The notes below the pieces were generated by a model. The model ran no database searches. It was given only the letters and a program-made list of their open reading frames with translations, and had not been told where the DNA came from. Of a stretch of 64,000 nt of DNA, positions 3,001-56,128 are shown one piece after another. This DNA comes from Styela clava. Lineage: Eukaryota. Position numbers and translations under genes: made by a program. The stretch is from NCBI RefSeq assembly GCF_964204865.1, contig NC_135252.1, forward strand, positions 11,842,001-11,906,000, in the 5' to 3' direction. How positions within the stretch are numbered: the first letter of the stretch is position 1; each line of letters starts with the position of its first letter.

Positions 3001-3024
3001 AAGAGTTCAATTTATAATTTTTGA
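1..3024 (+). CDS. Forkhead-box transcription factor, divergent FoxN1/4- or FoxR-like (5' truncated by window edge)
   Basis: Phase-consistent GT-AG exons <1-470, 693-1172, 1519-1795, 2082-2289, 2630-3024. Spliced domain KPPLPYNILIYLAFKDAKFRCLTVKQIYNFVLKTFPYFTEAHQTWQ|NAIRHQLCCCKIYVKV...SAWKI. The intron at WQ|N and the post-domain KLEDD..KKD..LKLSLFDP segment are as in FoxN/FoxR. Acidic Ser-rich tail; AATAAA near 3453. Confidence 0.88.
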
Positions 3025-16000: not shown

Positions 16001-18265
16001 CTTCTGTCGATTCCGTAGGTTCGAGTGGAGGAGGTGTTGTTGCTTCGGTCAATTCCGTAGATTCGATTGGGGGAGGGGTTGGTGCTTTGGTCAATTCCGT
16101 AGGTTCGATTGGAGGAGGTGTTGTTGCTTCGGTCAATTCCGTAGATTCGATTGGGGGAGGGGTTGATGCTTCGGTCAATTCCGTAGATTCGATTGGAGGA
16201 GGGCTTGATGCTTCGGTCAATTCCGTAGATTCGATTGGGGGAGGTGTTGTTGCTTCGGTCGATTCCGTAGGTTCGAGTAGAGGAAGGGTTGATGCTTCGG
16301 TCAATTCCGTAGATCCGATTGGGGGAGGGGTTGTTGCTTCTGTCGATTCCGTAGGTTCGAGTGGAGGAGGGGTTGGTGCTTCGGTCAATTCCGTAGATTC
16401 GATTGGGGGAGGGGTTGATGCTTCGGTCAATTCTGTAGATTCGATTGGAGGAGGGCTTGATGCTTCGGTCAATTCCGTAGATTCGATTGGGGGAGGTGTT
16501 GTTGCTTCGGTCGATTCCGTAGGTTCGAGTAGAGGAGGGGTTGATGCTTCGGTCAATTCCGTAGATTCGATTGGCGGAAGGGTTGGTGCTTCTGTCGATT
16601 CCGTAGGTTCGAGTGGAGGAGGGGTTGGTGCTTCCGTCGATTCCGTAGGTTCGAGTGGAGGAGACGTTGGTGCTTGTGTCGATTCCGTAGATTCGAGTGG
16701 AGGAGGGGCTGGTGCTTCTGTCGATCTCGTGGGTTCGAGTGGAGGAGGAGTTGATGCTTTGGTCGATTCCGTAGATTCGAGTGGAGGAGGGGTTGTTGCT
16801 TCTGTCGATTCCGTAGGTTCGAGTGGAGGAGGGGTTGGTGCTTCTGTCGATTCCGTAGATTCGAGTGGAGGAGGGGTTGTTGCTTCCGTCGATTCCGTAG
16901 GTTCGAGTGGAGGAGTCGTTGGTGCTTGTGTTGATTCCGTAGATTCGAGTGAAGGAAGGGTTGGTGCTTCTGTCGATTCCGTAGGTTCGAGTGGAGAAGG
17001 GGTTGGTGCTTCTGTCGATCCCGTAGATTCAATTGGAGAAGGGGTTGGTGCTTCTGTCGATTCCGTAGGTTCGAGTGGAGGAGAGGTTGGTGCTTCTGTC
17101 GATTCCGTAGGTTTGAGTGGAGGAGTGGTTGGTGCTTCTGTCGATTCCATAGGTTCGAGTGGAGGAGGAGTTGGTGCTTCTGTCGATTCCGTAGGTTCGA
17201 GTGGAGGAGGGGTTGGTGCTTCTGTCGATTTCGTAGGTTCGAGTGGAGGAGTGGTTGGTGCTTCTGTCGAATCCATAGGTTCGAGTGGAGAAGAGGTTGG
17301 TGCTTCTGTCGATTCCGTAGGTTCGAGTGGAGAAGGGGTTGGTGCTTCTGTCAATTTCGTAGATTCGAGGGGAGGAGGGATAAGTGCTTCTGTCAATCCC
17401 GTGGGTTCGAGTGGAGGAGGGCTTGGTGCTTCTGTCGATTCCGTAGATTCCAGTGATGGAGGGGTTGGTGCTTCTGTCGATTCGAAAACTTAGGTTAAGT
17501 ATGAACAAAGTAAACACTAGCAATGATTTGTTATTTGTCAATAATTTTTCGTAAATCCGTGATTGTTTGTTTCTCGTGGTAATAATATTTATTTGTATAT
17601 ACGTCTGTTGCTGATATAACATAATATATATATATATATATGTCAAAACTGCAGCCCTGCTGTCCTGCCTCAAACAACTGATGTTTCTGTACCCCCGAAG
17701 TATGTGAACCAAGATGGCAGACACCGGAACGTAGTATGTGTACCAGGTTAGGGTTAGGCCACAATTGTTTTACAATTTTCCTTATTTTAGTTCTATTATG
17801 AGTTTCGAGGACTAATGAAGTGACTCTCGTAGTATTTTTACCTGGAATTATGGTCTAACCCCAGCTTGGTACACATACTACGTTCCAATGTCCGTCATCT
17901 TGTTTCAAATACTTCGGGAGTACCAAAACATCAGTGGTTTGAGGCAGGATAGCAGGGCGGCAAAACTATCTGGAATTGTTTTCGCTCCATTTGAAATTGT
18001 AGGCCTAGCCTACTGTATTTTGCTTTTCTGGAAACCTACCGTGAAAATATCCAGTTACGACTAGGTAGAAAGCAGATTTTTAAACGTTTTGTTTCTTGTA
18101 CATGATTATTATTCGATTTTTTCATTGCTGACTTTTCTCGATCTTATATCTTATATCTTATGTATATCTCGTCAATAATTCATTTTGAAAAATAAACTTA
18201 CCACTCAATCCAATTACATCAACATGAAGTTGTAAAAAAAGTGTCAATATGAAGATAAACAGCAT
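10014..18265 (-). CDS. Secreted mucin-like protein (~1246 aa): signal peptide, PTS repeat domain, 2 TIL domains, Cys/Trp-rich and antistasin-like C-terminus
   Basis: Exons 18265-18202 (MLFIFILTLFLQLHVDVIGLS), 17488-14600 (repeats), 13476-13294 (TIL1, EICTLQC), 12870-12685 (TIL2), 11161-11026, 10951-10779 (CPHLEITC..C..DVLGCNSCIC), 10123-10014. All GT-AG and in frame (3741 nt). Confidence 0.85.
11210..11671. mobile_element. hAT (Charlie-like) MITE in mucin intron
   Basis: TIRs CAGTGGTTCCCAAAC...GTTTGGGAACCACTG; perfect 8-bp TSD CTCTAGAG at 11202-11209 and 11672-11679 (NTCTAGAN is the Charlie-type target). Confidence 0.93.
13850..14250. mobile_element. Tc1/mariner (Tc2/pogo-like) MITE, decayed right end
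   Basis: Left end ta-ctgtgtttccccgaaaataggacc; homologous throughout to the copy at 40173-40502. Confidence 0.7.
14662..15082 (-). repeat. Second 42-bp coding minisatellite, ~10 copies (TFPTTEMTTGPTLS)
   Basis: Repeats of gggaatgtagaaagagttggtcctgttgtcatttcagtggtt directly abutting the first array. Confidence 0.96.
15083..17488 (-). repeat. 42-bp coding minisatellite, ~57 copies (PPPLEPTESTEAPT-like)
   Basis: Direct 42-nt periodicity, e.g. gattccgtaggttcgagtggaggaggggttggtgcttctgtc. Confidence 0.97.
17651..17961. mobile_element. Foldback MITE containing the CCCGAAGTAT/CAAGATGG family core
   Basis: ~110-bp inverted arms (gcagccctgctgtcctgcctcaaac... / ...gtttgaggcaggatagcagggcggc) flanked by direct repeat AAAACT; the core is homologous to 30165-30400. 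Confidence 0.8.
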
Positions 18266-20978: not shown

Positions 20979-23919
20979 TTACGTAAAAATCAAATAAAAC
21001 AGAATCTGTACAGACAAATAAAATGCAATAGAACTTTGTATGGATATTCTGTTAGCTGCACACTTCACATCAGTGTCACAACAACCAATCTTGCAGTCAC
21101 TGATAATAAAGAATTAAATGCTTATAAAATAGAATATAGACTATAGAGAATTGTCATGCAAATCCTCATGTTCTCTCGTGGAACATTTTTTATTATTTTA
21201 TAGTTATTTAATTATACGAATAATTGACTATTTTAAATCAAATTCCTTACAGATAATCTATAACATTGTCACATACATAAAGCCAATGGCATGGATCTTT
21301 TCTTTGTCGTAACACCAATATTGTAATAGCGCCATAAAATAACAAAATGTTTTTATTAATTGTTTTCTGTATCAGACAAAATTACAGTATTTTCTACACC
21401 AATATCCTATCGACTGATTTTAAAATAAAATCCAAAATGCTGCCACGGAACTTCTAATTATGACGTGACAAAAATGGAGAAAACAAATACAAATTCATTT
21501 CTTGTTTGAATATTGTTATCATGGTCGAAACAAAATTATGATTAAGTCAAGCTTTTTTACAGTGTCAAACAAAAGATGGATTCTATGTATTGGAAGGAAC
21601 ACTTATTTAAAGTCATCTAGTATCTTATATGAAATATGTAAATAACAAACAAAAATTTCTAAATTCATTATAAAATTATTCTCAATTTGAAGAAGATCAA
21701 CATCTATTTTTGACCCGACTAATTTCTTCACAGTGGGATTGTATGATTCGCAAGTTGATTCCGTGCAGTTTATTCTGCTTTTGCATTCCCCAATGATGGC
21801 ATCTCCAGTGACTGTCACTAAATAATTTATAATGATATTACATAATGTTATACAGTATATCTGGCTACAAATATTCTATCCAAAAGTTTCTACTATATAT
21901 ACCTACTTTCGCACGTAAGAATATGTGGCCTAATAGAATGAATGAAACGATATCGTGTTAGTATAATAGCATTTCACTTATGAACTACAACCATAAGTCA
22001 ACCAAAACATTACTTTTTTGCTATTCGTAAGCAAACAATTTTTAGTGAATTACAAATAATATTAAATCAATGATTGAAAATGCTCAATAGAGTGCTTTTT
22101 AGTGTTATACCCTAACGAACCCGCACGGTTACGCAACAAAGACGATGGCATTGATTCCTACTTATCACTCATCGCCATTATGCAGCCATATTGAACCATT
22201 ATTCACCAGTTTACTGCCGTGGACACTATTTTGCTTCTATAATGAATCTCCGCTCTAGAAGACCCTTATTCCCAGTCCCAGTCGTTCTGTCTGTGTATCT
22301 GTGTGTCGAAGCTGTAGCGTCTTTATTTGAAATTTCCCATATTTTTTCGCGTTTCGTCGATAATTAGGATTGCTATTTCCGTTTCTATGGCAGCGACGCA
22401 ATAACGCGTCGATCGTTAGTAAATTTTCAATTTTCTCACAAGTTTTCACCATTTTCGAAAATTCGTATTCCAAGAACGCTACCCTCCGCAGGAGAAAATA
22501 CTCTTTTTAACAAGACATTTTTTATCTCAATACTCCATAAACTGGAGAAGCCTTGGGAATTTTTATGAAAATGATTAATCGTTAGCCACAGTATGCCGCT
22601 CACTCAAGGATACCTATGAGACGCACAGCGCTCAAAACGAATTGGCAGTGTCGGTAACGCGCTCAATGTTATATAGGCTCTGTCCATCCTGGGTAGGCTT
22701 ACCATACGTCCCGCTTTAGGCGGGACAGTCCCGCCTTTTTAGTGTCTTGTCCCGCCGTCCTGACAAGTCAGCTAAATGTCCTGCTTTTGCGTTCAGCCAT
22801 CCAGCATAATACACGAACATGTTCTCGTTACTGTTGTTGCTGTGTAGCGCAACGCTAGCCTACTTACTGAAGGTGAATGCGTTATTTTGTTTGTTTCGTT
22901 GTTTCCCGCTAACATTGTTAGCGAAGTATCACATGTAAAATCAATTCTCATTGGTCCTTTCCGGACGTTCACGTGAATGTAACATTGAGCAACGTCTTTT
23001 TGAAGGTTGTTATCTACAGAAAAGCATGCTTGGGTGAATAAGTAAATTCTCAATGCTTGGGAACGGCAGACTATCTCATTATTCTTTATTCCTTTTGGCT
23101 TTTGCTGTACAAAAAAATCTAAATTCCGATCCTTTGTATCGTTAGCGTCTATTCCTTTATATTTTTCGAATCGAACCCGATATTTAGACAGAGAATATGC
23201 GCATTAACTCTCGATGACAATATGGTCAATGAAGACAGCCGGGATGGCTTTAAATGTAGGTCTGTGTAGTAAAATCGGAAACTGTAAAGTTACAGGATTA
23301 CAGCTAAGGGGTCGTGTCCTTGGAGGCGTCCCGCTTTGAAGTCAAAAAAATATGGTAACCCTAATCTTTGGTACATACCGTCTTGTTATTGCATTGTGTT
23401 TTTCACGAAACAGCACGTTGACGCCATCATGAGAACATAAATCAATTTCAATTCCATTTTAGTAATATAGCGGACATGGACTCCATTTTATTTTATATCT
23501 ATTGGTAGTGAACTTACATAGAGCATAACAAACAATCTTTTTCATACATGTTAACTTAGACACTCTTCATTGGTCTTCTACAGTCTTAGACGAGCAAATG
23601 TGCGAGTATCTTTGGGAATTCCACAATATGAATGACATTTAAGTTATCAACAACAGCGTTTGTAAACCAAATTAGATTATTTTAAAAACAAATACTCACT
23701 CAAGTTCCCTAATGGATAAGACAGAGATGCTTCTACTTGAAGACATACAGCATCCAATCCTAAAGCGGGACAGCACGTTTTCGTTGAGATTTCATCCAAG
23801 TTGAATAAACCCATAGCATCGACCCTGTACCCATGTTGACATCGTCTGGATTCCACGCTAACCACGCAATATACTAGTATGCTTGAAAGATGAAAAATTA
23901 TTCTAAATCCCATAACCAT
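20979..23919 (-). CDS. Three-finger (Ly6/uPAR-like) GPI-type protein A (~159 aa); exon-2 donor defective as assembled, possibly a pseudogene
   Basis: Exons 23919-23700, 21817-21679, 21099-20979. Signal peptide; RRCQHGY..KTCC..AVC..GECKSRINCTESTC..DCKIGCCDTDVKC; hydrophobic C-terminus (IAFYLSVQILFYLIFT*). Confidence 0.75.
22694..23363. mobile_element. hAT (Blackjack-like) non-autonomous element in intron 1 of gene A
   Basis: Ends TAGGCTTACCATA / TATGGTAACCCTA with GTCCCG subterminal motifs; imperfect 8-bp TSD atcctggg/atctttgg. Confidence 0.75.
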
Positions 23920-26662: not shown

Positions 26663-28794
26663 TTAATCAAATTTGAATTCCATATACACTGACAACATTA
26701 TAGCAATGAATATTGCAAATGACGGTGCAATTATTTTCGTCCCAGAAGTTGTAAGGTCAGGAGATTCTGCAATAAACAAATAATATCTTAAAAAGTCGCA
26801 GGAAAAATGCAAATAGAATTTAAAAATCTCCTCCTATTCAATTATCTTTTTAGGAAGAATAGCCCTGCGTCTACTTTTTTTTAATTCACAAAGCAGTTCA
26901 GGGGGGATATACGGTTATTTACATTCCACTCCTTTTTGTTTGTTAACACTGTGTTGGACACGTACCGCGAGGATAAGTAAATGAAACAAGAAAAAATGAA
27001 CGAGTAAAATCACAAATATGTTTTACAAAATATAGCTTTCGTCAAAGATAGAATTTTTATCAATTTTTTCATGTCGTTAAAAAGCAGTGAAGTGCCAGGA
27101 TTACCACATGGGAAGTCGACCCAAATATTATAAATAAAATTCATAGAAATAAACATCTGAGACTGGAAGGTTTGTTTTTAGAATCCACACCATCTGCTTG
27201 ATTGAATACACGCAAGAAAATTAAATTGATCCTTTGATCCTTAAAACGAATTTCAACTCCAAAAATTCATATATACTAATAATTCACTTTTTCACTGATT
27301 TATTATTTACGTATTATTTACGATTTATGTATTATTTACCTGATGCCGTTACGACCGTGGTTTCCGGGCTATCATTCATAATAACGCCATTGCAGCTGTT
27401 AGTGTCGCAGCATCGAACCTCGCACGATCTAAATTAAATCATGTATATTGTAACTCATTGCATCTATAGTTCAAAAATGCGCTTCTAACCAGACATAAAA
27501 TGCTTTCGATTAACTCGTACCACGCCAATAGTGTTGAGGGTATATGTGCATGAATTGTCAATCGGGTCAGATTTTTTACATTGACACGGGATAAATAATT
27601 TGGGACTTGGATTGGGTGAACCTTTTACACATCTGGTTGAGACATATATATACTTGAATTGTACCGTACTCGATCGGTGCTCAATTTATGAATAACACTT
27701 GTATGAGTAAATTATTTTTTAAATGCAGCGGGATAATTTAGTAAGTAGGCCTGTGCACCCCAGTTTGATGTTTTCATGTCGAGTTGATTATTACCCTATA
27801 CTGAATAAAAAAAACCAAAATACTTGATTGAATTTTGTATATATCATATGGAATCTACAATAAATATCAAAAGAGGCGCGTTAAAGTCTATATTACCGTT
27901 GGAGTAGTCCGCGAGTAAGAAACTTTGGCTTCCGAATCTGTTCAAGAATTTAGGGCAAAACGTTTTTTTTTTTTTCAGGTAAGGCGGAGCATCCTATGCA
28001 ATACAATGTAACAATTCATCTAATATTGTGTGGTTTGTAAGACGAACTGGAATACAGCTTTGAATTAGTTACAAATGTTGAGATCTTACTTTATCAGTAC
28101 TTCATCTGCTTGGATACCTGATGCGTAGTTGAGTAGCGTGTCTTTGTAATCATCGCATGTTATTTCAGTGCAATTGCTACGAGGATGGCAATTCATATAC
28201 ACACCCTGTGCATCTTATAAAGAACACAATAAATATATATACAAGATCAGAAACAATTCAAATGTTCTGGTTTATTATTTACACCATTTGCCCAAAAATA
28301 TAAAAAAGAAAGTTTGACTCGTATTAAAGATAGAAAGCAATAGAAAATCACAATCTATATATATCCATTAATAACAGGTATAGTTACTTGTTTATTATCA
28401 CATAATAAGTTAATAATTTGTTAATCAGAAAATAGCACTTTGATCTTGAATAACAGTGGAGCATTTTCATTTTTGAACTGAATTCCATCAGTCCTTCAAA
28501 GTTATGCTAGGTCGCAATGTTAAATATATGATAATTTTCAGAGGGGCGTTTTCGCTATCAATTCGCTTTATGGAACTTACCTTTTATTACGTTCAATGAT
28601 ATCACTACCTCCATTCGGAAACATACAGGATCTAGCGTCATCCATGTCGTGCAATTTTCGACGACTGTACTTCTGTTTTCTGATATGTCCGGAATTGTTA
28701 GTTCATAACCCAGTTCACATTCAATACCTTGTACAGGATTGAAATCGGGACAGCTAACAAACATATACAATATTAGGAGATCAAGTCGAGGCAT
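26663..28794 (-). CDS. Three-finger GPI-type protein B (~176 aa)
   Basis: Exons 28794-28581, 28213-28090, 27428-27340, 26766-26663, in frame. IECELGY..ENC..PVCFR..MNCHPRSNCTEITC..SCEVRCCDTNSCN; short S/T stalk; hydrophobic tail. Confidence 0.88.
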
Positions 28795-29452
28795 TGCAAG
28801 TCAGGATTCTATACTTTATAAAGCTATTTTCATTGACAATATTACCATAAAATTACTGAGGATATATATGAAGTCACTCTGAAAAAAGTGAAGACAGAGT
28901 ATTTGATGTTAAATTCTTCTTTATTTTGAACTAATCCTCTACTCAACAGTGTAGGAAATTCCCTTTTTAGATAAAATATTATGTAGATCTACTCATCTAA
29001 AAATTATATAAAAAAAGAATAAAAATAAAGGGAGAAAATCAGAGAACGATGCCCAAATATGTAGACACGAAGACTAAAACAAAGTTGTACGGGTATGCTA
29101 TCTGTCACCGTAGACTATCTGTAATACCTGACCACCGAATTGCTACGCGAAGGCGATACAACGTTCGCAATTTTTTATTTTAATGACGTCAACGCTCACA
29201 AACAAACGAATTTCTTAGAGCCCATGGGAACTTTTGGAATCAATAGAAATAATAGACTTCCAGCGAAAGTGCAATCGTACTTTATAGGGCAGAATTTAAC
29301 TGATGAAAATTACGGTAAAGTGGTGTATTCCCTACTCAAACTTATCTCGCCAAGTTCCATACTACTGACAATCAATAAAATCCCAATCATCTTTGAATGA
29401 TCAAAACCTAAGATGATATTTTGCAGACGGAATTATACAAGATACAAAAAAC

Positions 29453-29562
29453 GGACCTCCAGAAGTATGTCCACCAAGATGGCGCACAACCTAAACATAG
29501 TAGATGTTCCCGGTTAGGGTTCAGGTTGTGCGCCATCTTGGTGCACATACTTCGGGAGCGCC
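29453..29562. mobile_element. Merlin-like MITE (short form)
   Basis: Palindromic, GG...CC termini, flanks caaaaaac/caaaaaat; absent at the paralogous site ~36125. Confidence 0.8.
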
Positions 29563-30164
29563 CAAAAAATTATGATATGAGCGATTCGACAACAAAGATA
29601 AATGTAAAATGCAGACATTATTTGTGTACAAACCACCATCGTTCAACAAGAATTTCCTTTAATAATCCTGGAATGCCTCATTCTGCGCTATCTTACTCAT
29701 TCTTCGGGTTATGTACATTTTCCGTCTTGTGAAAGCCATTAAATGATTTTTATCTGTTTGTTTAATTTTTATATCGTACTGAATCACCTAATAATCAATT
29801 TCCTTCCGGAGTATGGGTTTCAAAGAGTGTGCTTTACCGTTTAAACAAAGAGCAATTCAGTGTTGTTAATTTTGACTATCGGTTGTTGCCGTGGTGTTGC
29901 TGGGTAAACAGAACATCTTTCGATTTCTGTCATTGTAGTATGATTGCTTTTTTCAAAAATAGATTTCTGAAAAGAATATAATGCATCATATTTCTTCATG
30001 TTAAAATACCCACGAACACACAATGAAACAAAATTCTTTGAACATATGTTGTTTATTCTGTTTATACGGGGCGTTTACCACAATGAAAAGTGCAAATACT
30101 GTCTTCCAGATCATTATTTAATCTAAAGTATTTGGTACCTTTTTGAATACAACAAGGTGGAGAG

Positions 30165-30400
30165 GGTGCTCCCGAAGTATGCGAACCAAGATGGCGGACA
30201 TCGGAACGTAACATGGGTAACAGGTTAGGGTTAGGCGATAAATTTTTTCCAATTTTCCTTATTTTAGTCCTTTAATCAGTTCGAAGACTAGCCAAGAGCC
30301 TCCCGTAGTATTTATACCTAAATTTATGGCCTAACCCTAACCTAGTACACATATTACATTCCGATGTCCGCCATCTTGGTTCGCATACTTCGGGAGCCCC
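30165..30400. mobile_element. Merlin-like MITE (long form)
   Basis: TIR GGTGCTCCCGAAGTATGCGAACCAAGATGGCGGAC; perfect 8-bp TSD GTGGAGAG; empty site at ~36730 in the duplicated segment. Confidence 0.9.
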
Positions 30401-30522
30401 GTGGAGAGACTTGTTTTTATTGCGGCAACGAACAAAAAACCCTGAATTACAAAGGATTTGTAAACGGAACAAGTTACGATCTCATTTATTAATACTTCAT
30501 GATACCATGTTCGGAATAAATT

Positions 30523-30618
30523 TCAAAAGATAACAATACAGACAACCACAAATATATCTTCGGGTAGCGCCAATGTATAAAGAACAAAGGAAGATGAAAT
30601 TATATCAAGTCGAGGCAT
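30523..30618 (-). pseudogene. Collapsed chimeric mini-ORF 1 (gene-B start fused to C/D-type tail), 31 aa
   Basis: MPRLD (as gene B, with B-like upstream DNA) joined to IISSSFVLYTLAL (as gene C last exon). Confidence 0.7.
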
Positions 30619-31269
30619 TGCAAGTCAGGATATTATGCCTTAGAAAACTGTATTCATTGACAATATTATTATAAAATTACTAAGTTTTTCATCGGTTTGT
30701 TCAAGTTTTATATCGTACTGAATCATTAATCATCAATTTCATTTCGTTTATGAGCATATGGAATGATGATGCATATGAGTATAACTTGAACAATAAAATA
30801 CAAATTTTGTGCCGATATCATTAAAAATGCGCCCACAAAGCCGAGTTTATTGATAGTGGTGAAATGTTTCGTATGTGTGTCCGCAGTTATCTGTGTGTTC
30901 AGTATCCATTCGTTTTTGTTTATGACCTCATTACCGATCAGTCAGTCGACCGCAAGCTATTTTGAAGATTTTAGTCGATCGCGGTCAAAGCAGGTTGGCC
31001 ACCCCTGATTTAGATCATACAATTCAGATTTGTGACCTGCCTAGTTTTTAGTCGTAAGTGTTGAAATTTCATCTTGCTAAGTGTTATCTAAACTGCAAAA
31101 AAATAAATATTCTCAAACCATGATTGTAAAATTTGAACAATAACCATTTGCTAGACTAAGTATGATCTGCAAATAGAATATGTCTTTCATAACTAAAGAT
31201 GTAGACGGGGTTTACACAATTATTCTCGCTCTTTGCATAAGTGAGATACGTCAATGAATGTTTCAAAAC

Positions 31270-33097
31270 TTAGCATATTAAGCAAAGTAGAGCCAATATA
31301 TAGAGAACAAAGGAAGATGAAATTATATCAGTGCCGGATGTTGTTTGTTCCTGTCCAGCCGTTGGTGTCGAAATCGGCGTTTCTGTAACAAATAACTTCG
31401 ATTATTTATAAGATACTGTTGTAAAATTTTCAATGACGAGAAACTTACTTGATGCATCCTCTATTACGCTAAAGGAACCTTCAGTAGAAAACTTTGCAGC
31501 GTCGGTTGTCTCTAAAGCTTTAGTTGTAAGTACCACAGGTCCGAGTAGATCCATCATGTTAATGTAATCTTCATTGCATTTGTTGGTGTTGCAGCATCCA
31601 ACAGAGCACGTTCTATCATCAGAAAATGCAAATCATTATGTAAAACCTGCGTAAAGCTATTTACATATTAGATATCTCGTCTATCAGAATCTCCCTCGTG
31701 TCTTCTGCCAACTGCGCCCTAGTTCGCTTATGCATTTTTACCTTGATTGCCACCTAGCTTCCGATATTTATCAGCTTTTACTCTTACAGTTTAATAGACT
31801 GTAGATTATTGACGCATTTCATGATAGTCGCTTAAATTGAGGGTAAATCATAAGTAAGTTTGATACATGCTCGATGCTCATCAGAGTTCACACATCAGAG
31901 CAATTTTATTTGGTAATAATAACCCTTGTATGAGAGAAAGAGATTTATTTTTTTTGTCAACCGAAATAAAATACCAGTCATCGTAATAATAATAAGTAAT
32001 AAATTAGTTTGGTATAGACAGGAGGGAGTGATACGACCAAACGGTCATCGAAGTCATCTTCCCCGTGGAAGCCGAAGGTACTTTATACTCATAACACTGT
32101 TAGATATAAGGTTATATGTTTATTATTGCGAAAAGGTTCTCACGTGATGTCAATGTCTGAAATACTACTGCCAAAGCTCGACGCTTGCAATTCTTGGAGT
32201 ATTAGTTTTTTATATTGGCCGCAAGTTTGTTCAGTGCAGTTGATACGAGGGTGACATCCACTATACATGGCCTCTCCACCTGAAAAAATATTAAGTACCT
32301 ATCATATTTTTAATAGGCGAGCGTGGGATTTGATTGTACAATAAAGTGAATGTATCATGAATATTCAAAGCGATTTTTGATTCATTCTTAAAAATATAGC
32401 TCAAACCAATATGTTTCTCTACTCAGTCCATAGTACAGGACACAACGGCAAGGAGTCAAATGGACCGCTATCAGCATATATATCATAGGTAATTTATTCA
32501 AACCAAACCGCTATTTTGCTATTGGGTAGATAAAACAGAAGCGACATTTAACATATAATGAGAACTATAAAGCAACAACACAAAATAGTAAATTGGTAAT
32601 GAGTAACGTCGAGTGAAAGCTGGATAAATGGGCTTCGACGGGAATACATGTAGGATGGTACATGATAAGCCAGTTTCGTGGAATGAGTTTGGTAAAAGTT
32701 CTGATTTTGTTGACACAGTCCTGTTGTAAGTGGACTTATGAATAACTACATAATAAAAAGAGCAATCAAGTTCCTCAGTACCACAGGTCCTCTATAGTCA
32801 TCTGTTATTACACGACTATGCTGCTCCAAGTGAAGCAACAACTGATTTTACTGAACAACTTAACTTACTGATTGTGAACCCGTGATATGAAATACTGGCG
32901 GTTGATTCAATCCGAAAACACACAGGATTCGAGGTTGTCCACTCTGTGCAGTTCCCTGTGGTTATACTCGTCAGACCACTTACAAGTGACGAAGTAGATG
33001 TTACTTCATATCCTTGTTGGCACTCTATACAATTGACCACGGTCATCTCAAAAAGCAATATCGATGCGAAAACCGACTTCCAGTATTGCCTCGACAT
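31270..33097 (-). CDS. Three-finger GPI-type protein C (~213 aa)
   Basis: Exons 33097-32869, 32279-32144, 31612-31449, 31382-31270, in frame. IECQQGY..GNC..PVCFR..SGCHPRINCTEQTC..TCSVGCCNTNKCN; S/T stalk; tail IISSSFVLYILALLCLIC*. Confidence 0.9.
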
Positions 33098-33599
33098 TTT
33101 AGTTATATATAACGAGTCTTACATGTAAAATAATCTGAAAACCTGGTTGTAAAGTAATTATTTGTAAAACTTCGTTAAAACTGATACCTGGATGGCTGCA
33201 TCCTGATAAACCATCTCATTCTTTCGATGTTTTTCATTTGCGTAAGTTAGTAAACATATTATTGATCAGAATTATTTCCCAGTGATTATCATACGACTTA
33301 AAATATATGTGAAGACATGGAGGAAGGCTGAGTTGACATTGTCAGATCTCATTAGTTATTGCATGTTTCCAATATACCAGTGGTGGCCAACCTGCTTCCA
33401 ACCGCGAGCGACCGAAATCTTCAAAATAGCTCGCGCTCGACTGATAGGTAATAACGTCATACACAAAAACGAGTGAGTACTGGATATGCGGTTAACTGCA
33501 CACAGGCATACAAAAAAATCCACCGCTACCAGAAAATTGCCACAAAATTTGTCCTTTTTTGTGTCCCATTTGATTTGTCAACTTGATTAAGTGTAAGTG

Positions 33600-34740
33600 T
33601 TTCATCATTTATTTAAGAATTATTTAGAATTTAGATCATACACTTCTGATCTGGGGCCTGCCTAATATTTAGTCGTAAGTGTTGAAAATTGATCAAAACA
33701 ACTTGCCAAATATTATCTACACAGCGGGAAATAAATATTCTCAATTCATAAATGTTCTGTACTAAATAACTGTTCAAACATTAGCATCTAATTTACAATT
33801 TCTTTCAAGTCCGATTCTTTACTCACTTGGAATTAGAATATTTACGCTACCGCTACCATTGCGAATAAAATAGAGTAAAACAAAAACTTCCGCATACTGC
33901 GAAAGTTATTGGAGGATCGTTTTTCAGTCAAGGCACACGATATTCGACACGTTGGTTTCTAAACCTTGGCAGTGAGAAACTTGCATTTGTTACATGCTGT
34001 TAGATTTGATCTCACACATTTCGCCACTTATATTTCTTTATTATCTTACCAATTCCAGACAAACAATGTTCTATCTTTATTATTTCATGTTTATAGTGAC
34101 TCATTATTGCGCCAAAGTGAAGATATAAAACGCAAGATAACGCGCTTCTGATTCTTTTTTCTATGCGATATACCAGGGGTGGCTGACACGTCGATCGTCA
34201 CTTCTCGAGCAGTCGATCGCGTCTGATGTTGAGTGAATTTTATTGAAATATCACCAAAAATTTCCTCGAACCAGTTGTGTGTTTTACAACAGAAAAAATA
34301 CAGTACTTTACATGCACAAAATACAATATACACATACAATATTTGAGTCTGGGCAATCCCGATAAAGAATATTATTACGTAACAAATGCAAGTTTTTTCC
34401 GCTGCCAAGGTTTAGAATGAAGTGCCGAATATCGCGTGTCTAGACTGACAAACAATCCTACAATAACTTCCACAGTATGTGAAAGTTATTGTCTCACTCT
34501 AAGAGTAGTGGGATAAATTTTATTCGCAATGGTAGCAGTGGCATCAAAATGCCCAATTTGTTCTAATTCTGAGCAAGTGAAGAATCGCGTTTAGAGGAAA
34601 TTGTATATTAGATACTGAAGTTTGCGCAGTCATGTAACATTCAAGGCAAGGTTTCTTGAAGAATTTTCAACACCACTGAAAATTAGGCACGTTCTTCATC
34701 TGAATTGTATGATTTAAATAAATCTTAAATAAATGATGTG
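33600..34740. repeat. Degenerate ~350-bp inverted repeat pair
   Basis: 33600-33993 is the diverged reverse complement of 34379-34740 (aaaccttggcagtgagaaacttgcatttgttac vs gtaacaaatgcaagttttttccgctgccaaggttt). Confidence 0.75.
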
Positions 34741-35306
34741 CTACTGAATACTACTGTACTACTGAATAAATGATACTAATGAGTGCTTGAGCATTCTTGA
34801 AAAGATAACTCGAACTACCGGATATGAGCAATAAGATTTCGGATGTAATGTTATTTATTTGCTACCCACAACAATCGGAGTTCACAAATGACTTCGATGA
34901 TTTCATTGTTTCATTGTGTTACCACACATACCATATTTTGATAATTGTAACGGAAAACTTTTCATCTATTAATAATTTAGGATACCATGTTCGGAATAAA
35001 TTATAAAAGGTAGCGATACTGACAACCACAAATATATCTCCGGGTAGCATGGATGAAATACGTTGCGTAGCCAATTGATATAATGGACTGAAGGTAGTCA
35101 TTATGGATTTTATAACTACACATTGTTGTTTTCATTATCGTTTAAATGACATGTAAAATTTGAACAATAACCATTTGCTTGAATAAGATGATCTGCAAAT
35201 AGAATATGTCTTTCATAACTCATGCTTAACAAAAGGTGTAGACGAGGTTTACACAATTAATCTCTTCCTTTGCCTGAGTGAGGTACATCAATGAATGTTT
35301 CAAAAC

Positions 35307-35378
35307 TCAGCATATTGAGCAAAGTAAAGCCAATATATAAATAACAAAGGTAGATGAAATTATATCAAGTCTAGGCAT
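35307..35378 (-). pseudogene. Collapsed chimeric mini-ORF 2, 23 aa (MPRLDIISSTFVIYILALLCSIC*)
   Basis: Gene-B-type upstream region and first codons fused in frame to a C/D-type terminal exon and its 3' UTR (~35150-35306). Confidence 0.75.
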
Positions 35379-38300
35379 TGCCAGTTCGGATATTATGCCT
35401 CATAAGGCACAACTATTTTCATTGACAATATTATCATAAAATTACCAAGTATATTTATGAAGTCACTCTGAAAAATGTTAAGACAGAGTATTTTCTATGA
35501 AATTCTTTCTCATTTTCAAACAATCATCGACTCATCAGTGTAAGAAAAGTCCTATTCTAAAGAAAATACCATGCAGATCTAATCAACTACAAATTATATA
35601 AGAAAAAATATGAGAGCGATGCTCAAATATAAAAAAATAAAAGTAATAGCCTTCTAGCGGGAAATACAATCTTAACCATTGAAATTTCGAAGCAATTGGT
35701 TCAGTATAGGTAATGAAAAAAGCGATTTTTTTTTCGTAACAACCAAAAAAAGAAAAGAAAATTCTAAAAACGACAAATATCAAAACGATCTTTATGTCAA
35801 TTTCGTGTCCGAAGATGACAACTGATTTTTCGTTACGTAGGCAGTAACGCTATGATCACACAGAACTGACATTCTCTAACAAAAGCTCTATTGTTCAATT
35901 TTAGTAGGTCTTTATAATATAACGAGGTACTGTGAGTTAATTAGTGCAATCGTAGTTCCGGATATGATTGATAAAAATAACAGAAAAGTAGTGTATATAT
36001 TTCATTTTTAAACTTTTCTCACCAAGCTTCCGTACTAATATATATGCTAAATCCCAATGCTAATATCAATAAAATTCCAATCATCTTTGAATGATATTTT
36101 GCCAGTAGAAATCATACAAGATACAGAAAATGATTGAAAATGAACGGTTTGACAATAGAAGTAATTGCAAAATGCAAGTAATATCTGTCAACAAACCACC
36201 ATCGTTAAACGAGAATTTCAATTAATTATCTTGAAATCCTTCATTCTTGGCAGCTTTCCTCATTCTTCGTGGTATGTACATTTTCACCTTGTGAAAACCA
36301 TTAAATGTTTTTCATTTGTTTGTTTGAATTTTATATCGTACTGAATCATTTTTATATTATTATTATATAATCAATTTTATTTCGTTTCTGTGCATATGTG
36401 TTTTGAAAAGTGTGCTTCATCGTTTTGAACAAAGAGCAATTCAGGGTTGTTGAATTTGACTATTTGATGTTACCGTAGTGTCGCACTTATAAGTAAAATG
36501 TATCTCTCTCGATTTCAGCCATTGTAGTATGATTGCTTTTCCAAAAATAGCTTTGTAAAAAGCTAAAAAATGAAGCATCAGATTTCCTAATGTGAAGATA
36601 CACAAGAACACACAATGAAACAGAATTTCCTAAAAAAATTTGTTGTTTATTACGTCCACAATCAATGATGTAAATATTCCAGATCATAATTTTACCCTCA
36701 CGTGTTTGGTACCTTTCTGAACACAACAAGGTGGATATAAATCTGTTTTATTAGGGCAACAAAGTTTAATGCTAAATTACAAGGACTTCGCCAACGGAAC
36801 TAGTTACGATCCCGTTCAATATTACTGTACTTTACAGTACCATGTTCGGAATAAATTTTAAAAAGTAGCGACACAGATAATCAGATATATATATATCTTT
36901 GAGTATCAATGATGTAATACGTTGCGTATAGTCTACTGATCTGATGAAGCTTTGATGTTAGATTGTTGGTTAGTCATAAAGGATTGCGCATCCACACATT
37001 GTCTTTATAAAAATTTGAATAGAATAATATGTCTTTCATAACTCATGCTTAACGAAAGATGTGGACGAGGTTTATACAATTAATCTCTTTCTTTACATGA
37101 GTGAGATACATCAATGAATGTTTCAAAACTTAGCATATTGAGCAAAGTAGAGCCAATATATAAGGAACGAAGGAAGATGAAATTATATAAGTGCCGGATG
37201 TTGTTTGTTCCTGTCCAGCCGTTGGTGTCGAAATCGGCGTTTCTGTAACAAATGACTTTGATTATTTATAAGATACTGTTGTAAAATTTTCAATGACGAG
37301 AGACTTACTTGATGCATCCTCTGCTACGCTGAAGGTACCTCCAGTAGAAAACTTTGAAGCGTCAGTTGTCTCTAAAGCTGTAGTTGTAAGTACCACAGGT
37401 CCGAGTAGATCCATCATGTTAATGTTGTCTTCATTGCATTTGTTGGTGTTGCAGCATCCAACAGAGCACGTTCTATTATCAGAAAATGCAATTTATTAGG
37501 TAAAACCTGCGTAAATTCATTTACATATTAGATATCTCGTCCATCAGAATCTCCATCGCGTCTTCTGCCAACTGCGCCCTAGTTCGCTCATGCATTTTTA
37601 CCTTGATTGCCACCTAGCTTCCGATATTTATTAGCATTTACTCTTACAGTTTAATAGACTGTAAATTATTGACGAATTTCATGATAGTCATATAAATTGA
37701 GGATTAATCATTAGTAAGTTTGATACATGCTCATAAGGGTTCACACATCAGAACAATTTTATTTGGTAATAATTACCCTTATATGAAGGGTACGATATAC
37801 TCATAACACTGTTAGATATAATGTTATATATATGTTTATTATTGCGAAAAGGTTCTCACGTGATGTCAATGTCTGAAATACTACTGCCAACGCTCGACGC
37901 TTGCAATTCTTGAAGTATTAGTTTTTTATATTGGCCGCAAGTTTGTTCAGTGCAGTTGATACGAGGGTGACATCCACTATACATGGCCTCTCCACCTGAA
38001 AAAATATTAAGTACCTATCATATTTTTAATAGGCGAGCGTAGGATTTGATTGTACAATAAAGTGAATGTATCATGAATATTCAAAGCGATTTTTGATTCA
38101 TTCTTAAAAATATAGCTCAAACCAATATGTTTCTCTACTCAGTCCATAGTAGCCTACAGGACACAACGGCAAGGAGTCAAATGGACCGCTATCAGCATAT
38201 ATATCATATGTAATTTATTCAAACCAACCCGCTATTTTGCTATTGGGTAGATAACACAGAAGCGACATTTAACATATAATGAGAACTATAAAGCAACAAC

Positions 38301-40040
38301 ACAAAATAGTAAACTGGTAATGAGTAACGTCGAGTGAAAGCTGGATAAATGGGCTTCAACGGGAATACATGTAGAATGGTACATGATAAGCCAGTTTCGT
38401 GGAATGAGTTTGGTAAGAGTTCTGATTTTGTTGACACAGTCCTGTTGTAAGTGGACTTATGAATAACTACATAATAAAAAGAGCAATCAAGTTCCTCAGT
38501 ACCACAGGTCCTCTATAGTCATCTGTTATTACACGACTATGCTGCTCCAAGTGAAGCAACAACTGATTTTACTGAACAACTTAACTTACTGATTGTGAAC
38601 CCGTTATATGAGATACTGGCAGTTGATTCAATCCGAAAACACACAGGATTCGAGGTTGTCCACTCTGTGCAGTTTCCTGTGGTTATACTTCTCAGACCAC
38701 TTACAAGTGACGAAGTAGTTGTTACTTCATATCCTTGTTGGCACTCTATACAATTGACCACGGTCATCTCAAAAAGCAATATAGATGCGAAAACCGATTT
38801 CCAGTATTGTCTCGCTATCATAGTTATATATATATATAACAAGTCTCACATGTAAAACAATCTAAAACCTAGTTGTAAGGTAATTATTTGTAAAATTTCG
38901 ATAAAACTGATACCTGGATGGCTGCACCCTAATAAACCACCGCATTCTTCAGATTTTTCCCATTTGCGAAAGCTATTAAACATATTATAAATCAGAATTA
39001 GTTTCTAGTGATCATCACACGACTTAGGAAAACATATCTGACGACATGAGGGAAGGCTGAGTCGATCTTGTCAGATATCATTAGTCATTGCACGTTTCCC
39101 ATATACCAAGGGTGGCCAACCCGCTTCCAACCGCGAACGACTGAAAAGTTCCGACTTATCAGTATTAACGTCATACACAGAAACGAATGAGTACTGAATA
39201 TGCAGTTAACTGCACAAACGCATACACAAAATTCCACCACCACCAATATACTCGGCATTCTTAATAAAATCGCCACAAAATTTGTATTTTTCATGCTCCA
39301 TTTTACATTGACAAAAAAATTTTTTTCCCGGCCCCAAATGTTCTATGACTGTTCAAACATCGGTATATAATTTACAATTTCCTTCAAGTCCGATTTTTTT
39401 ACTCGCCTGGAATTATATACGCTACCGCCACCGTTGCAAATAAAATAGAGTGTGACCAAAACATTCGCGTACCGCAGAAGTTATTGAAGGATCGCTTTTC
39501 AGTCAAGTCACACGATATTCGACACGTTGGTTTCTAAACCTTGCTAGCGTGAGAACTTGCATTTGTTAATTCTTACGTGATGTTCGATTTGCCCTCGCAC
39601 GCCTCATACATTTAGCCACTTATATTTCTCTATCATCTTACCAATCCCAGACAAATTATGTTCTATCTTCATTACTGTTTTATTTCATGTTTATAGTGAC
39701 TCATTATTGCGCCATAGTAAAGACTTAGGGAGTAAAACTTTTCGCCCTGGTTTTGAGATAACGTGCTTCTTATCCTTTTTTCTCTGCGATATACTATACT
39801 AGTATAGACTATTAGTTAATGAATTTTATTATCATTCTTTAATTCCATCTTTCTGCATAATTAAGGAGTACTTGAGCACTGTAGAAAATATACCTCGAAC
39901 AATCGGATATGAGCAATACGATTTCGGATGTGATGTTATGCGTTTGCTATACCCACAACAATCAGAGTTCACAAATGATCTCGATGTTGTTATTGTTACT
40001 CTCTGCGTTGTGACTTTACCACACATACCATATTTTGATA
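35370..40040. repeat. Segmental duplicate of ~28780-34940
   Basis: Collinear shared blocks (gaagtcactctgaaaaa, accaccatcgtt, ttgtagtatgattgctttt, whole C/D gene, cggatatgagcaata...accacacataccatattttgataa). Confidence 0.85.
37130..38821 (-). CDS. Three-finger GPI-type protein D (~214 aa), recent paralog of C
   Basis: Exons 38821-38590, 37995-37860, 37472-37309, 37242-37130, in frame; near-identical to C. Confidence 0.9.
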
Positions 40041-41827: not shown

Positions 41828-43666
41828 TTACTTTTCAATATTATTCAATACAATCAGACGTAACAAATAATACGTAAGAATGTGTGCAAGCAGTCGAGTT
41901 TGCATAAACACTGAATGGCCATTAGATGTCGTTGCAATATCAGTGGGTGTTGTGGTCTGTTCATTAGTCATACTGGCAATTGTTGCATTGTTGCAGCTGT
42001 CCGTTGAACAACATTCATATTCGCAACTTCTAAAAATAAAAAAAACAGCAGAACCAAAATGAATGGGGTTATTTTGTTATTACTGTTTATGTTGATGTTT
42101 AGCATATAGTCAAAAATATGCATACACAGACAAGTCATTTACGTATAGTATAGAGCCAGGCAAATATACATGTACAATCAACTTAATATACATGTACAGC
42201 CATTTAAGTGATGTACATACACATAAAATGACATTCGCATATATATTTGATTTAATGTGATGTACAGTCATCCAAGTAATGAACGTATACACAGAAAATG
42301 TCATACGCACATAGAGCCAACTCAATAAACATATACATCCATTTAAATGGTGTACCGTGCACATATAAAATTCAATGTCATATACATGTACAACCAACTT
42401 AAAATGCATTAATGATGTGCATACAAACGATAACGTCATATGCACTTTTGTGTAAAAGTAGATTGCAACCTCCTTTACGTATTCATCTACAACGTTCGTC
42501 AAATTGGTATGCATCGTTATGCGCAACTACGTACAGACGTGCCACTGATGCTTGTTTCATAGCAATTTAGTACATCTACTTTACACTACACTTGGTATGA
42601 TAATTTCTAATATTTCGATCAAAAGCCGTTCTGGAGTTTCTGTGAACGTTTTAACGCACTCATTGCGACCGATCATCTGCAATGGGATGATATGACTTCT
42701 GAGATTACGACTTCCCATATATATCTATAAATCAGCTGCTACAAGCTGAATCATTATGAACATAACATGTAAATGCAAACGTTTTAATATACAATATACA
42801 TAGAGTGCATGCATATGACAGGTTGCCGGGGTTGGATGTATTTGTATATCACCTAAATGGCTGTATATGTAAATTTGGTTTGCTGTATATGCTAACTGTC
42901 TTAAAGATGGGAATGACAACAAGTGATATCGCATATTTCGTATGCATTCGACTATACATATAATAGTTTTTAAAAATTTGAATGTAATACTGCAAGATCT
43001 GGAAGAAACTTCAGTAAAATTGTATACAAATTGGGAATTTGGAGGAAATATTCGTTACGTTCAAATTTTTTTCTGTTTATAAATCCTTACTTGACTATAT
43101 AAGATCCAAGTAGGTTAGATCCAATTTGTTCAGTAATAACCTCAGGCGCATAAGATGTACAATTTACCGTGTCGCAGAAAGCTGTTGTAGAGCAATTTGC
43201 AAATGCTACCTTCAAGTCAGGAATCGAACTTACTGTGGAAATACCTAGAAGAATTATAAAACAGTGCACTAGCTGAAATCCAAAGATAAACCAGGTGAAT
43301 ATATCAGCTCGTCAAAATTAAAATTATACAAGAAAATTTAAAATAATCACGTTGGGTGAAATATATTGTGAAGGCAATGACAAATAGATGCCAGATAGAT
43401 TCCGCTACGGATAGATTTCTATATAATAACCGGATGCGTATCAGTGACTGCTTGATTGAAGACTTGTTCGGAATGAAAACGACTCACCAAAATAACAGTC
43501 GGTATAGTGCTTTACCTGCTACAGCCTCTATTCGTAAGCATGTTACATCATCTTCTTGTCCACAGTCAATTTCTAGTATAGTTGGAGAAGTAGATAAACA
43601 TTTCAACGAGTGAATTACGCGAAAGAAACATAAAATGACAATGAAAATAATTTTCCCAAATAGCAT
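41828..43666 (-). CDS. Three-finger GPI-type protein E (~168 aa)
   Basis: Exons 43666-43516, 43244-43091, 42029-41828, in frame. LKC..IDC..VTC..ANCSTTAFCDTVNC..SCEYECCSTDSCN; Thr-rich stalk; moderately hydrophobic tail. Confidence 0.87.
42110..42930. repeat. Degenerate CATATACAGCC-rich repeat element (related copy at ~20000-20330)
   Basis: Iterated catatacagcc/ggctgtatatg motifs in both orientations. Confidence 0.6.
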
Positions 43667-55556: not shown

Positions 55557-56128
55557 ATTGAAGACCAAGTTAGAAATCTTCCACATATTTTTATCGCTTC
55601 CAAACATTTATAGAGAGGTTTAAGATGATACTTGAGAAAAACAATAAGCATACATTGATTTTAACATGTTTAAGGTCTGACCAACTCAAATTATTGGACA
55701 CGTAATGGGACCTATGGATCGCTTTGTTATTATGTTGTTCTTGTTCTTTGCGTTACTTCCTATCGTTATGAAAAAATCGCCTTTCTCTTCAACTATTGGA
55801 CCAATTGCTTTGAAATTTCTAGTGGTCAAAGATTGATTTATTTCAAATGTTTTTGTGAGCTGTATGAAATACGGTTTTTGTGTGCCATGACGTCATCAAA
55901 AATTGCCACCTTGTGGCTGTTACACGAACGTATATCAGCGGATCTTGTGCGCTGCGAAGTCGGTGGATCGCGTGCTTAGCGAAAGTGGAAGGTTTTCTAT
56001 GGGGAACAATGTACTGCGGTACCTGGTCTGGTAATACAGAAGTGACTCGGATCAGTTGGTATTTCAATTTACGTTTAAACTGAATCATAAAGCTATGACA
56101 GTTCCTGTACCGTCACCGGTATCCCGGG

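What the first reader, a model, noticed from the sequence alone, without database searches (positions are those of the whole stretch)
26663..38821. Cys spacing mirrors activin/BMP type II receptor ectodomains: possible kinase-less GPI decoys or co-receptors
Seen: C/D read PVCFR...SGCHPRINCTEQTC...C-x3-CC-x4-CN. Recalled ACVR2A ectodomain: RHCFA...QGCWLDDINCYDRTDC...CCC-x4-CN, with 10 Cys, no N-terminal CxxC, and pairing 1-3, 2-4, 5-8, 6-7, 9-10. The same pairing fits here, and the Phe after C3 is kept in B/C/D, but the ligand-binding Trp after C4 is His/Lys/Ser. No TM-kinase exons follow. Inference: either membrane-tethered TGF-beta-family modulators or convergence within the three-finger fold.
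Basis: inference. Interest (0 to 1): 0.7.

Follow-up and report, generated by a model that had tools for sequence, protein, structure and literature searches.

The report
Sea-squirt three-finger surface protein cluster
These are three of seven side-by-side sea-squirt genes for small three-finger (Ly6/uPAR-type) proteins predicted to be lipid-anchored on the cell surface; they have the same cysteine order as activin receptors but belong to a sea-squirt family of their own and are likely not receptor decoys.

Summary
Genes B, C and D are real spliced genes of Styela clava (RefSeq matches; contig joints), in a tandem array of seven. Each has a signal peptide, a 10-Cys domain, a Ser/Thr stalk and a hydrophobic tail with no cytoplasmic part. 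The proposed 5-8/6-7 pairing is supported: 9 of 42 related repeats lose C5 and C8 together. But 4 of the 6 spacings after C4 differ from ActRII, Trp follows C4 in 0 of 42 repeats, and Phe follows C3 in only 3. All 12 profile hits are tunicate proteins, including Ciona Not1 and CUB/kringle mosaics. The AlphaFold model ranks Ly6/uPAR proteins (Z 7.1-7.6) above ActRIIA (5.7) and BMPR2 (4.3). Styela's own ACVR2 keeps F/W/CCC, hits human ActRIIB at E 1.6e-16 and scores about 1 bit on the family profile. Verdict: an unnamed tunicate Ly6/uPAR subfamily that likely reached the type II cysteine order independently. Its binding partner is untested.

The parts
26663..28794 (-). Gene B, 176 aa; exons 28794-28581, 28213-28090, 27428-27340, 26766-26663. 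Signal peptide, 10-Cys three-finger domain, short Ser/Thr stalk, GPI-type tail
   Evidence: Model; RefSeq XP_077966732.1 is its C-terminal 166 aa; first two joints in one contig of run X1, with an allelic difference at the first
31270..33097 (-). Gene C, 213 aa; exons 33097-32869, 32279-32144, 31612-31449, 31382-31270
   Evidence: Identical to RefSeq XP_077967105.1; contig joints shared with D
37130..38821 (-). Gene D, 214 aa; exons 38821-38590, 37995-37860, 37472-37309, 37242-37130. Recent duplicate of C (131 of 138 identical over signal and domain)
   Evidence: Identical to RefSeq XP_077966977.1; CT..AC joints at all three introns; AlphaFold model pLDDT 85; pN/pS against C 0.32
41828..43666 (-). 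Gene E, 168 aa, same family; exons 43666-43516, 43244-43091, 42029-41828
   Evidence: identical to RefSeq XP_039267909.2
45726..46653 (-). Gene F, 230 aa, same family, long acidic Ser/Thr stalk; exons 46653-46485, 46327-46207, 46128-45726
   Evidence: identical to RefSeq XP_039268564.2
48688..50511 (-). Gene G, 378 aa, same family, about 230-aa Ser/Thr stalk; exons 50511-50325, 49913-49772, 49495-48688
   Evidence: RefSeq XP_039268565.2 ends with this model and starts 50 aa earlier
20979..23913 (-). Gene A, divergent member or relic; exon 1 23913-23700, exon 2 from 21817 (donor unclear), last exon 21099-20979; ends C-x5-C-A, not CN
   Evidence: HMM hits, translation, boundary scan; no contig joint seen, no RefSeq match retrieved
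35152..35610 (-). Relic in which a B-like gene start abuts a C/D-like last exon; a second such relic lies at about 30564-30685
   Evidence: Self-BLAST: 35152-35367 matches 31125-31330 (86%) and 35364-35610 matches 28780-29021 (79%)

Best explanation
B, C and D are spliced members of a tandem array of seven Styela clava genes from a tunicate three-finger (Ly6/uPAR, LU) subfamily, predicted to be GPI-anchored surface proteins that likely bind a neighbouring membrane or extracellular protein, as other LU proteins do, and likely not TGF-beta-family ligands in the manner of a type II receptor. Shown: gene structure, splicing, cysteine pattern, family membership among tunicate proteins. Predicted: the fold (three beta-hairpin fingers, loop 3 carrying two helices). 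Inferred: the signal peptide sends the protein into the ER; the tail is swapped for a GPI anchor; the Ser/Thr stalk (25-230 aa across B-G) sets the height at which the domain is shown; the domain works as a non-catalytic binding module for adhesion, recognition or modulation of a partner in cis. The subfamily likely lost the 2-3 disulfide and gained a loop-3 disulfide (C6-C7) on its own, which gives the same cysteine order as ACVR2/BMPR2. The array likely grew by unequal crossing-over. The partner is not identified.
For: Profile search of 1.84 billion representatives gave 12 hits at E<=0.001, all tunicate by their names: 4 window genes plus Ciona Not1 (3 repeats and a tail), two C. savignyi proteins labelled UPAR/Ly6 by UniRef, two C. 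intestinalis proteins, and three mosaic proteins. A profile of the 36 non-window repeats scores B-G at 35-50 bits and three ACVR2 ectodomains at 0-4 bits. VIA-align over 48,161 chains: CD177 7.6 (rmsd 4.9, 87 aligned), TEX101, GPIHBP1 and CD59 7.4 (CD59 rmsd 2.8, 70), Prod1 7.3; ActRIIA 5.7 (rmsd 3.4, 63) at rank 22, BMPR2 4.3. Second look: uPAR 8.9 (rmsd 2.3, 72). C4-x5-C5 followed by helix in loop 3; a CD59-like trait, recalled. Phase-1 intron in loop 2 in all of B-G, and two-exon repeats with phase-1 introns in the stretch of the mosaic relative examined: the LU layout described in PMC6600238. That review calls loss of the 2-3 bond frequent, gain of extra bonds known (LYPD6, loop 3) and tandem clusters typical. 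C versus D: 13 synonymous and 14 non-synonymous changes, pN/pS 0.32.
Against: No member reaches a Pfam cut-off for an LU family: of 13 domains, 4 touch UPAR_LY6 (best E 0.022) and 3 touch Activin_recp (best E 0.037), a near tie; D has no hit. The best Activin_recp score in the family is 19.0 bits against a cut-off of 20.9, in a four-repeat protein, and true tunicate ACVR2 only just passes (21-23 bits). Foldseek gave no match at E<=0.001. The Z gap between LU and type II hits is about 2, with most values under 8. The cysteine order is exactly that of ACVR2/BMPR2 (PMC6600238). Styela's BMPR2-like gene also has a phase-1 intron between C3 and C4, though 1 rather than 8 residues before C4. A-G have no separate signal exon and have an extra phase-2 intron, unlike canonical LU genes. 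GPI anchoring rests on hydropathy alone, and nothing here identifies a partner.
Confidence: 0.85

Rival explanations
1. The domain descends from a duplicated ACVR2/BMPR2 ectodomain that lost the TM-kinase exons, gained a GPI tail and acts as a ligand trap or co-receptor.
For: Same cysteine number, order and inferred pairing (PMC6600238). Phe after C3 in B/C/D. Weak Activin_recp hits in 3 of 13 domains. Phase-1 intron between C3 and C4 also in the Styela BMPR2-like gene. Type II ectodomains appear among the structural matches (Z 4.3-5.7).
Against: Triad F/W/F (each needed for binding, PMC13701385) reads F/H/V in B/C/D, and Trp follows C4 in 0 of 42 repeats. No CCC; 4 of 6 spacings after C4 differ. 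C7 sits four places before C8 in a predicted strand, against one place in ACVR2, so the extra bond likely lies on the other face of the sheet (inference from strand periodicity). phmmer of D finds no receptor in the PDB at E<=10, while Styela ACVR2 finds 14 ActRII chains at E<=1e-14. Profile-profile match to three ACVR2 ectodomains: 4% probability. No intron shared with Styela ACVR2. The domain occurs as 22 repeats among CUB, kringle and VWA domains.
Confidence: 0.04
2. The proteins are LU-family by descent but modulate TGF-beta/BMP or another morphogen pathway through a different surface, as LYPD6 does for Wnt.
For: LYPD6, a GPI LU protein with an extra loop-3 bond, enhances Wnt signalling through Lrp6 (PMC6600238). 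LYPD6B-like clusters are ranks 2 and 4 of the Atlas feature search for a C/D allele (0.87 and 0.86, leads only). The relative Not1 is, by recollection, the Brachyury target Ci-Noto1, a notochord gene (expression passages in PMC3812116).
Against: No direct evidence for any pathway. LYPD6B is tied with or below other LU proteins in structure (Z 6.5). A recent, 18-37% identical tandem array with relics fits dosage or partner diversification better than a conserved patterning role (inference). The Not1 = Noto1 identity was not confirmed by any search.
Confidence: 0.1
3. The genes are non-functional relics or annotation artefacts.
For: Gene A lacks a clear exon-2 donor and the terminal CN. Two collapsed relics lie in the array.
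Against: B-G have open frames, canonical splice sites, matching intron phases and invariant cysteines. Spliced contigs exist for B and C/D. pN/pS is 0.32.
Confidence: 0.01

Closest known systems
GPI-anchored Ly6/uPAR (LU) proteins: CD59, GPIHBP1, Prod1, CD177, TEX101, uPAR
   Same: Predicted three-finger fold with the best Z scores; CC-x4-CN end; signal peptide and GPI-type tail; phase-1 intron in loop 2; tandem clustering
   Different: No C-x2-C/2-3 bond; an extra C6-C7 bond; a much longer helical loop 3 (19-28 aa); signal and first half in one exon plus an extra phase-2 intron; below the Pfam UPAR_LY6 cut-off
LYPD6/LYPD6B
   Same: GPI LU protein with an extra disulfide in loop 3, placed more distally than in ACVR2 (PMC6600238)
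   Different: LYPD6 keeps the 2-3 bond (12 Cys, C-x2-CC; recalled); here C-x3-CC; no UPAR_LY6_2 hit; Z 6.5 to LYPD6B
ACVR2A/B and BMPR2 ectodomains
   Same: Ten cysteines in the same order, 2-3 bond lost, nested 5-8/6-7 pairing; Phe after C3 in B/C/D
   Different: No CCC, no Trp after C4, no S-W motif after C3, different spacings, no TM or kinase, no sequence similarity by phmmer or HMM, lower Z
Ciona intestinalis Not1 (NP_001027601.1) and related tunicate proteins
   Same: Same 10-Cys domain and spacing (..5, 4, 21-27, 3, 0, 4), signal peptide, Thr-rich linkers, hydrophobic tail; groups loosely with the window genes in a tree (91/80, unstarred)
   Different: Three repeats instead of one; not shown to be an orthologue; no molecular function found in the papers searched

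Membership tests
Ly6/uPAR (LU) three-finger superfamily | Three-finger fold | tested here: met
   AlphaFold model of D, pLDDT 85, pTM 0.74; the top 21 VIA rows are LU proteins or three-finger toxins
Ly6/uPAR (LU) three-finger superfamily | Eight core cysteines with terminal CC-x4-CN | tested here: met
   Present in B-G; joint loss of C5 and C8 in 9 of 42 repeats supports that pair; bonds not measured
Ly6/uPAR (LU) three-finger superfamily | Phase-1 intron in loop 2 dividing the domain | tested here: met
   B-G and the mosaic relative on contig C5; feature from PMC6600238
Ly6/uPAR (LU) three-finger superfamily | Secreted or GPI-anchored: signal peptide, hydrophobic C-terminus without cytoplasmic tail | tested here: met
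   Hydropathy windows, 0-8 residues after the tail; sequence feature only, anchoring not measured
Canonical 10-Cys Ly6/CD59 subtype (Pfam UPAR_LY6, CD59) | N-terminal C-x2-C with the 2-3 disulfide | tested here: not met
   Absent in all 42 repeats; not filed under this subtype
Canonical 10-Cys Ly6/CD59 subtype (Pfam UPAR_LY6, CD59) | Pfam score over the curated cut-off | tested here: not met
   Best UPAR_LY6 E 0.022 (4 of 13 domains), CD59 E 0.076 in F; B/C/D none
ACVR2/BMPR2 ectodomain | 2-3 bond lost, extra loop-3 bond (order 1-3, 2-4, 5-8, 6-7, 9-10) | tested here: met
   receptor pattern from PMC6600238
ACVR2/BMPR2 ectodomain | CCC-x4-C box and receptor spacings | tested here: not met
   C-x3-CC here; CCC in human ActRIIB, three tunicate-type ACVR2 and the Styela BMPR2-like exon
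ACVR2/BMPR2 ectodomain | Aromatic ligand-binding triad (F42/W60/F83 of ActRII) | tested here: not met
   F/H/V in B/C/D; Trp after C4 in 0 of 42; Styela ACVR2 has F/W/Y; triad from PMC13701385; mapping of the numbers to motif positions is recalled
ACVR2/BMPR2 ectodomain | Sequence similarity to solved type II ectodomains | tested here: not met
   None at E<=10 for D or the family profiles; positive control Styela ACVR2 E 1.6e-16
ACVR2/BMPR2 ectodomain | Transmembrane helix and Ser/Thr kinase | tested here: not met
   Stop codon directly after the hydrophobic tail; RefSeq agrees
ACVR2/BMPR2 ectodomain | Shared intron positions with the genome's own receptors | tested here: inconclusive
   None shared with ACVR2 (phase 0 in loop 1, phase 2 between C5 and C6); the BMPR2-like gene has a phase-1 intron just before C4
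ACVR2/BMPR2 ectodomain | Binds TGF-beta-family ligands | not testable with these tools
   Needs a binding assay
LYPD6/LYPD6B | Keeps the 2-3 bond and adds a loop-3 bond; Pfam UPAR_LY6_2 | tested here: not met
   No 2-3 bond; no UPAR_LY6_2 hit in 13 domains
Quiver/Sleepless (QVR) | Pfam QVR score over cut-off | tested here: not met
   One of 13 domains at E 1.2

The most novel reading that the evidence does not exclude
Tunicates evolved a Ly6/uPAR module that converged on the type II receptor disulfide topology and acts as a family of GPI-tethered BMP/activin/Nodal traps or co-receptors through a triad-free surface, with the Ciona notochord gene Not1 as a three-domain member that shapes signalling at the notochord surface.
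Probability: 0.07. Interest if true: 0.7.

Novelty: new variant of a known kind. Interest (0 to 1): 0.3.

Why it matters
Modest. It defines a tunicate LU subfamily that Pfam misses and gives a fold to several 'uncharacterized' proteins, including Ciona Not1, probably the notochord marker Noto1. It is a clean case in which the type II receptor cysteine order appears without receptor ancestry, a warning for annotation by cysteine count. The same domain sits among CUB, kringle and VWA domains as phase-1 exon pairs, although PMC6600238 says LU is probably not a bona fide mobile module. If ligand binding were shown, it would add a new class of TGF-beta modulators in the vertebrate sister group.

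Tried and rejected
Complex prediction of the D domain with a Styela BMP2/4 dimer: verdict 'no answer', score 0.06 against a mark of 0.34, alignments not used; no evidence either way. Structural positive control: the Styela ACVR2 ectodomain folded from 3 sequences gave pLDDT 50, so no fold search was run on it and the control is at sequence level only. Pfam scans of single exons gave nothing over a cut-off. A word-based homologue search with the 13-domain alignment found only 2 known hits among 163 candidates. Foldseek gave no hit at E<=0.001 and no TGF-beta receptor among the rows shown; none is in the top 50 of the second look either; absence from a list excludes nothing. A tree of 30 of the 42 repeats (12 repeats of the giant protein left out) is mostly unresolved, with 4 of 27 branches starred; it shows neither one origin of A-G nor orthology. 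Positive selection between C and D was not seen. The five letter differences of a contig on C exon 1 give two amino-acid changes, both to D's residues, so they likely reflect cross-mapping, not alleles. No run is on record as RNA; runs X4 and X5 laid nothing on B; B's last joint and gene A's joints were not seen, which is no evidence. No family exon stood out in about 20 kb right and 10 kb left of the window by a pattern scan. Literature: searches found no paper describing this family or the Not1 protein; only CC-licensed PubMed Central and bioRxiv were searched. The supplements of PMC3812116 could not be read and may link Noto1 to an accession. Three look-ups of earlier findings returned nothing.
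Full report
What is there. The window is from Styela clava by the RefSeq names of its own proteins and lies at G000:C3:11842001-11906000. A six-frame scan and a profile of the first models show seven related genes on the minus strand, A to G, between about 20979 and 50511. The finding covers B, C and D. These have four exons with GT-AG introns of phase 1, 2, 1; E, F and G have three, with phases 1, 2. The models equal RefSeq proteins for C, D, E and F and differ only in the start for B and G. Contigs of runs guessed to be RNA join at the three C/D introns and at two of B's three. Each protein has a hydrophobic N-terminus, a 10-Cys domain, a stalk of 25-230 residues with 25-39% Ser+Thr, and a hydrophobic end followed by 0-8 residues. 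C and D are recent duplicates under purifying selection (pN/pS 0.32); other pairs are 18-37% identical.

The observation. The motifs, the ten cysteines, the Phe after C3, the His/Lys/Ser after C4 and the absence of TM-kinase exons are as described. The pairing has independent support. In a 4811-aa Styela relative, 9 of 22 repeats have eight cysteines: they lack the Cys five residues after C4 and have Phe in place of the first Cys of CC, while keeping C6 and C7. C5 and C8 are lost together, which fits a 5-8 bond and leaves 6-7.

Why this is likely not a receptor remnant. First, only number and order match. After C4 the spacings are 5, 4, 19-28, 3, 0, 4, against 6, 5, 11-13, 0, 0, 4 in ActRII. 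Second, ActRII needs F42, W60 and F83 for binding (PMC13701385, two passages); the matching positions read F, H, V. Across 42 repeats Trp never follows C4, and Phe follows C3 only in B, C and D. Third, the genome's own type II receptors were found. Styela ACVR2 keeps C-F-x-S-W, G-C-W and CCC, hits human ActRIIB at E 1.6e-16 and passes the Activin_recp cut-off, narrowly. D finds no receptor at E<=10. A profile of the 36 non-window repeats scores B-G at 35-50 bits and the three ACVR2 ectodomains at 0-4; an ACVR2 profile scores the best repeat at 6.7; the profile-profile probability is 4%. Fourth, no intron is shared with ACVR2. The BMPR2-like gene does have a phase-1 intron in the same inter-cysteine interval, so this test is not clean.

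What it groups with. The family profile found 12 proteins at E<=0.001 among 1.84 billion, all tunicate: single- and multi-domain proteins with hydrophobic tails in Ciona, among them Not1, and mosaic proteins with CUB, kringle, VWA or DUF7495 domains. In the stretch of the mosaic gene examined, repeats are exon pairs with phase-1 introns in loop 2 and between repeats, the LU layout of PMC6600238 (parts 1-2 of 9 and passages read). The AlphaFold model of D (pLDDT 85) ranks CD177, TEX101, GPIHBP1, CD59, Prod1 and C4.4A at Z 7.1-7.6, ActRIIA at 5.7 and 5.3, TGFBR2 at 5.6 and BMPR2 at 4.3; uPAR reaches 8.9 in the second look. The top LU hits are tied, and Z under 8 shows little more than the shared fold. 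Atlas searches with alleles of E and C/D return mostly Ly6/uPAR clusters, all below 0.9; one structural row of the 20 shown is a type I BMP receptor. Pfam does not decide: UPAR_LY6 in 4 of 13 domains (best E 0.022), Activin_recp in 3 of 13 (best E 0.037), none over a cut-off. The review states that ACVR2 and BMPR2 lost the 2-3 bond and gained a loop-3 bond, that LYPD6 has a similar bond more distally, and that loss of 2-3 is frequent. The pattern can therefore arise more than once.

How it likely works. Signal peptide, ER entry, GPI exchange and display on a glycosylated stalk are inferred from anatomy and from general knowledge of LU proteins. The domain has no catalytic feature and is reused as a repeat in extracellular mosaics, so a protein-binding role in adhesion, recognition or cis-modulation of a membrane partner is the best reading (0.85 for 'LU family, ordinary LU-type role'). 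Which partner is open. A morphogen-modulating role through another surface stays possible (0.10); receptor ancestry is unlikely (0.04). Not1 is, from memory, the Brachyury target Ci-Noto1; passages of PMC3812116 and PMC6147236 treat Noto1 as a notochord gene, but no call linked the name to the accession, and PMC3034685 (passages and four supplements) had nothing on it.

Novelty and score. Tandem GPI-type LU genes are ordinary in animals, and this genome has other LU loci (17 UPAR_LY6 matches at E<=10, 5 over the cut-off). The subfamily itself has no Pfam model and was not found described in the searches named under Tried and rejected. It is a new variant of a known kind. Interest 0.3.

Noticed in passing
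P0013 (XP_039268896.1); G000:C5:23.835-23.867 Mb, loci L046-L051: A 4811-aa Styela protein with CUB, 22 repeats of this domain, 7 kringles and a VWA. Nine repeats, alternating with full ones, lack the C5-C8 bond (the ancestral 7-8 bond, whose loss PMC6600238 calls very rare). Repeats are phase-1 exon pairs, so the LU domain looks like a shuffled module here.
   Followed up: partly
P0014 (Ciona intestinalis Not1, NP_001027601.1): Three repeats of the domain plus a GPI-type tail; probably the notochord marker Ci-Noto1 (recalled). Pfam gives it no family.
   Followed up: partly
window 35152-35610 and 30564-30685: Two relics in which a B-like gene start abuts a C/D-like last exon, suggesting deletions or unequal crossing-over in the array.
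   Followed up: partly
window 20979-23913: Gene A has an extra Cys beside C2, no good exon-2 donor at the expected place and ends C-x5-C-A; possibly decaying.
   Followed up: partly
P0007 and P0010: RefSeq lists an isoform of D whose last exon is read in another frame, without the usual tail, and an older model fusing the G domain to all of F.
   Followed up: no
L039 (G000:C13:11208033-11211197): A C-x2-C Ly6 exon over the UPAR_LY6 cut-off lies upstream of an exon ending C-x-CCC-x4-CN, so a receptor-like CCC box may also occur in a plain Ly6 gene; exon linkage not checked.
   Followed up: no
G000:C16:14.56-14.65 Mb, L040-L045: A long array of LU-like exon pairs ending C-x3-C-x4-CN, with EGF-like exons between them.
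   Followed up: no
P0029; G000:C3 about 19.01-19.03 Mb: Styela ACVR2 has 12 ectodomain cysteines, an extra pair in loop 1, shared with two unnamed relatives.
   Followed up: no
window 10600-17500, minus strand: Mucin-like gene: a 965-codon frame of 42-bp Pro/Thr/Glu/Ser repeats followed by TIL-domain exons.
   Followed up: no
window 646-3024 and 4719-8781, plus strand: A forkhead gene and a Rieske plus pyridine-nucleotide oxidoreductase gene (AIFM3-like, name recalled).
   Followed up: no
window 53118-55559 and 56922-59247: Two elements with long terminal inverted repeats (about 340 bp; 94% and 82% alike), likely non-autonomous DNA transposons; short hairpin repeats at 17694, 29457, 30165 and 61849.
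   Followed up: no
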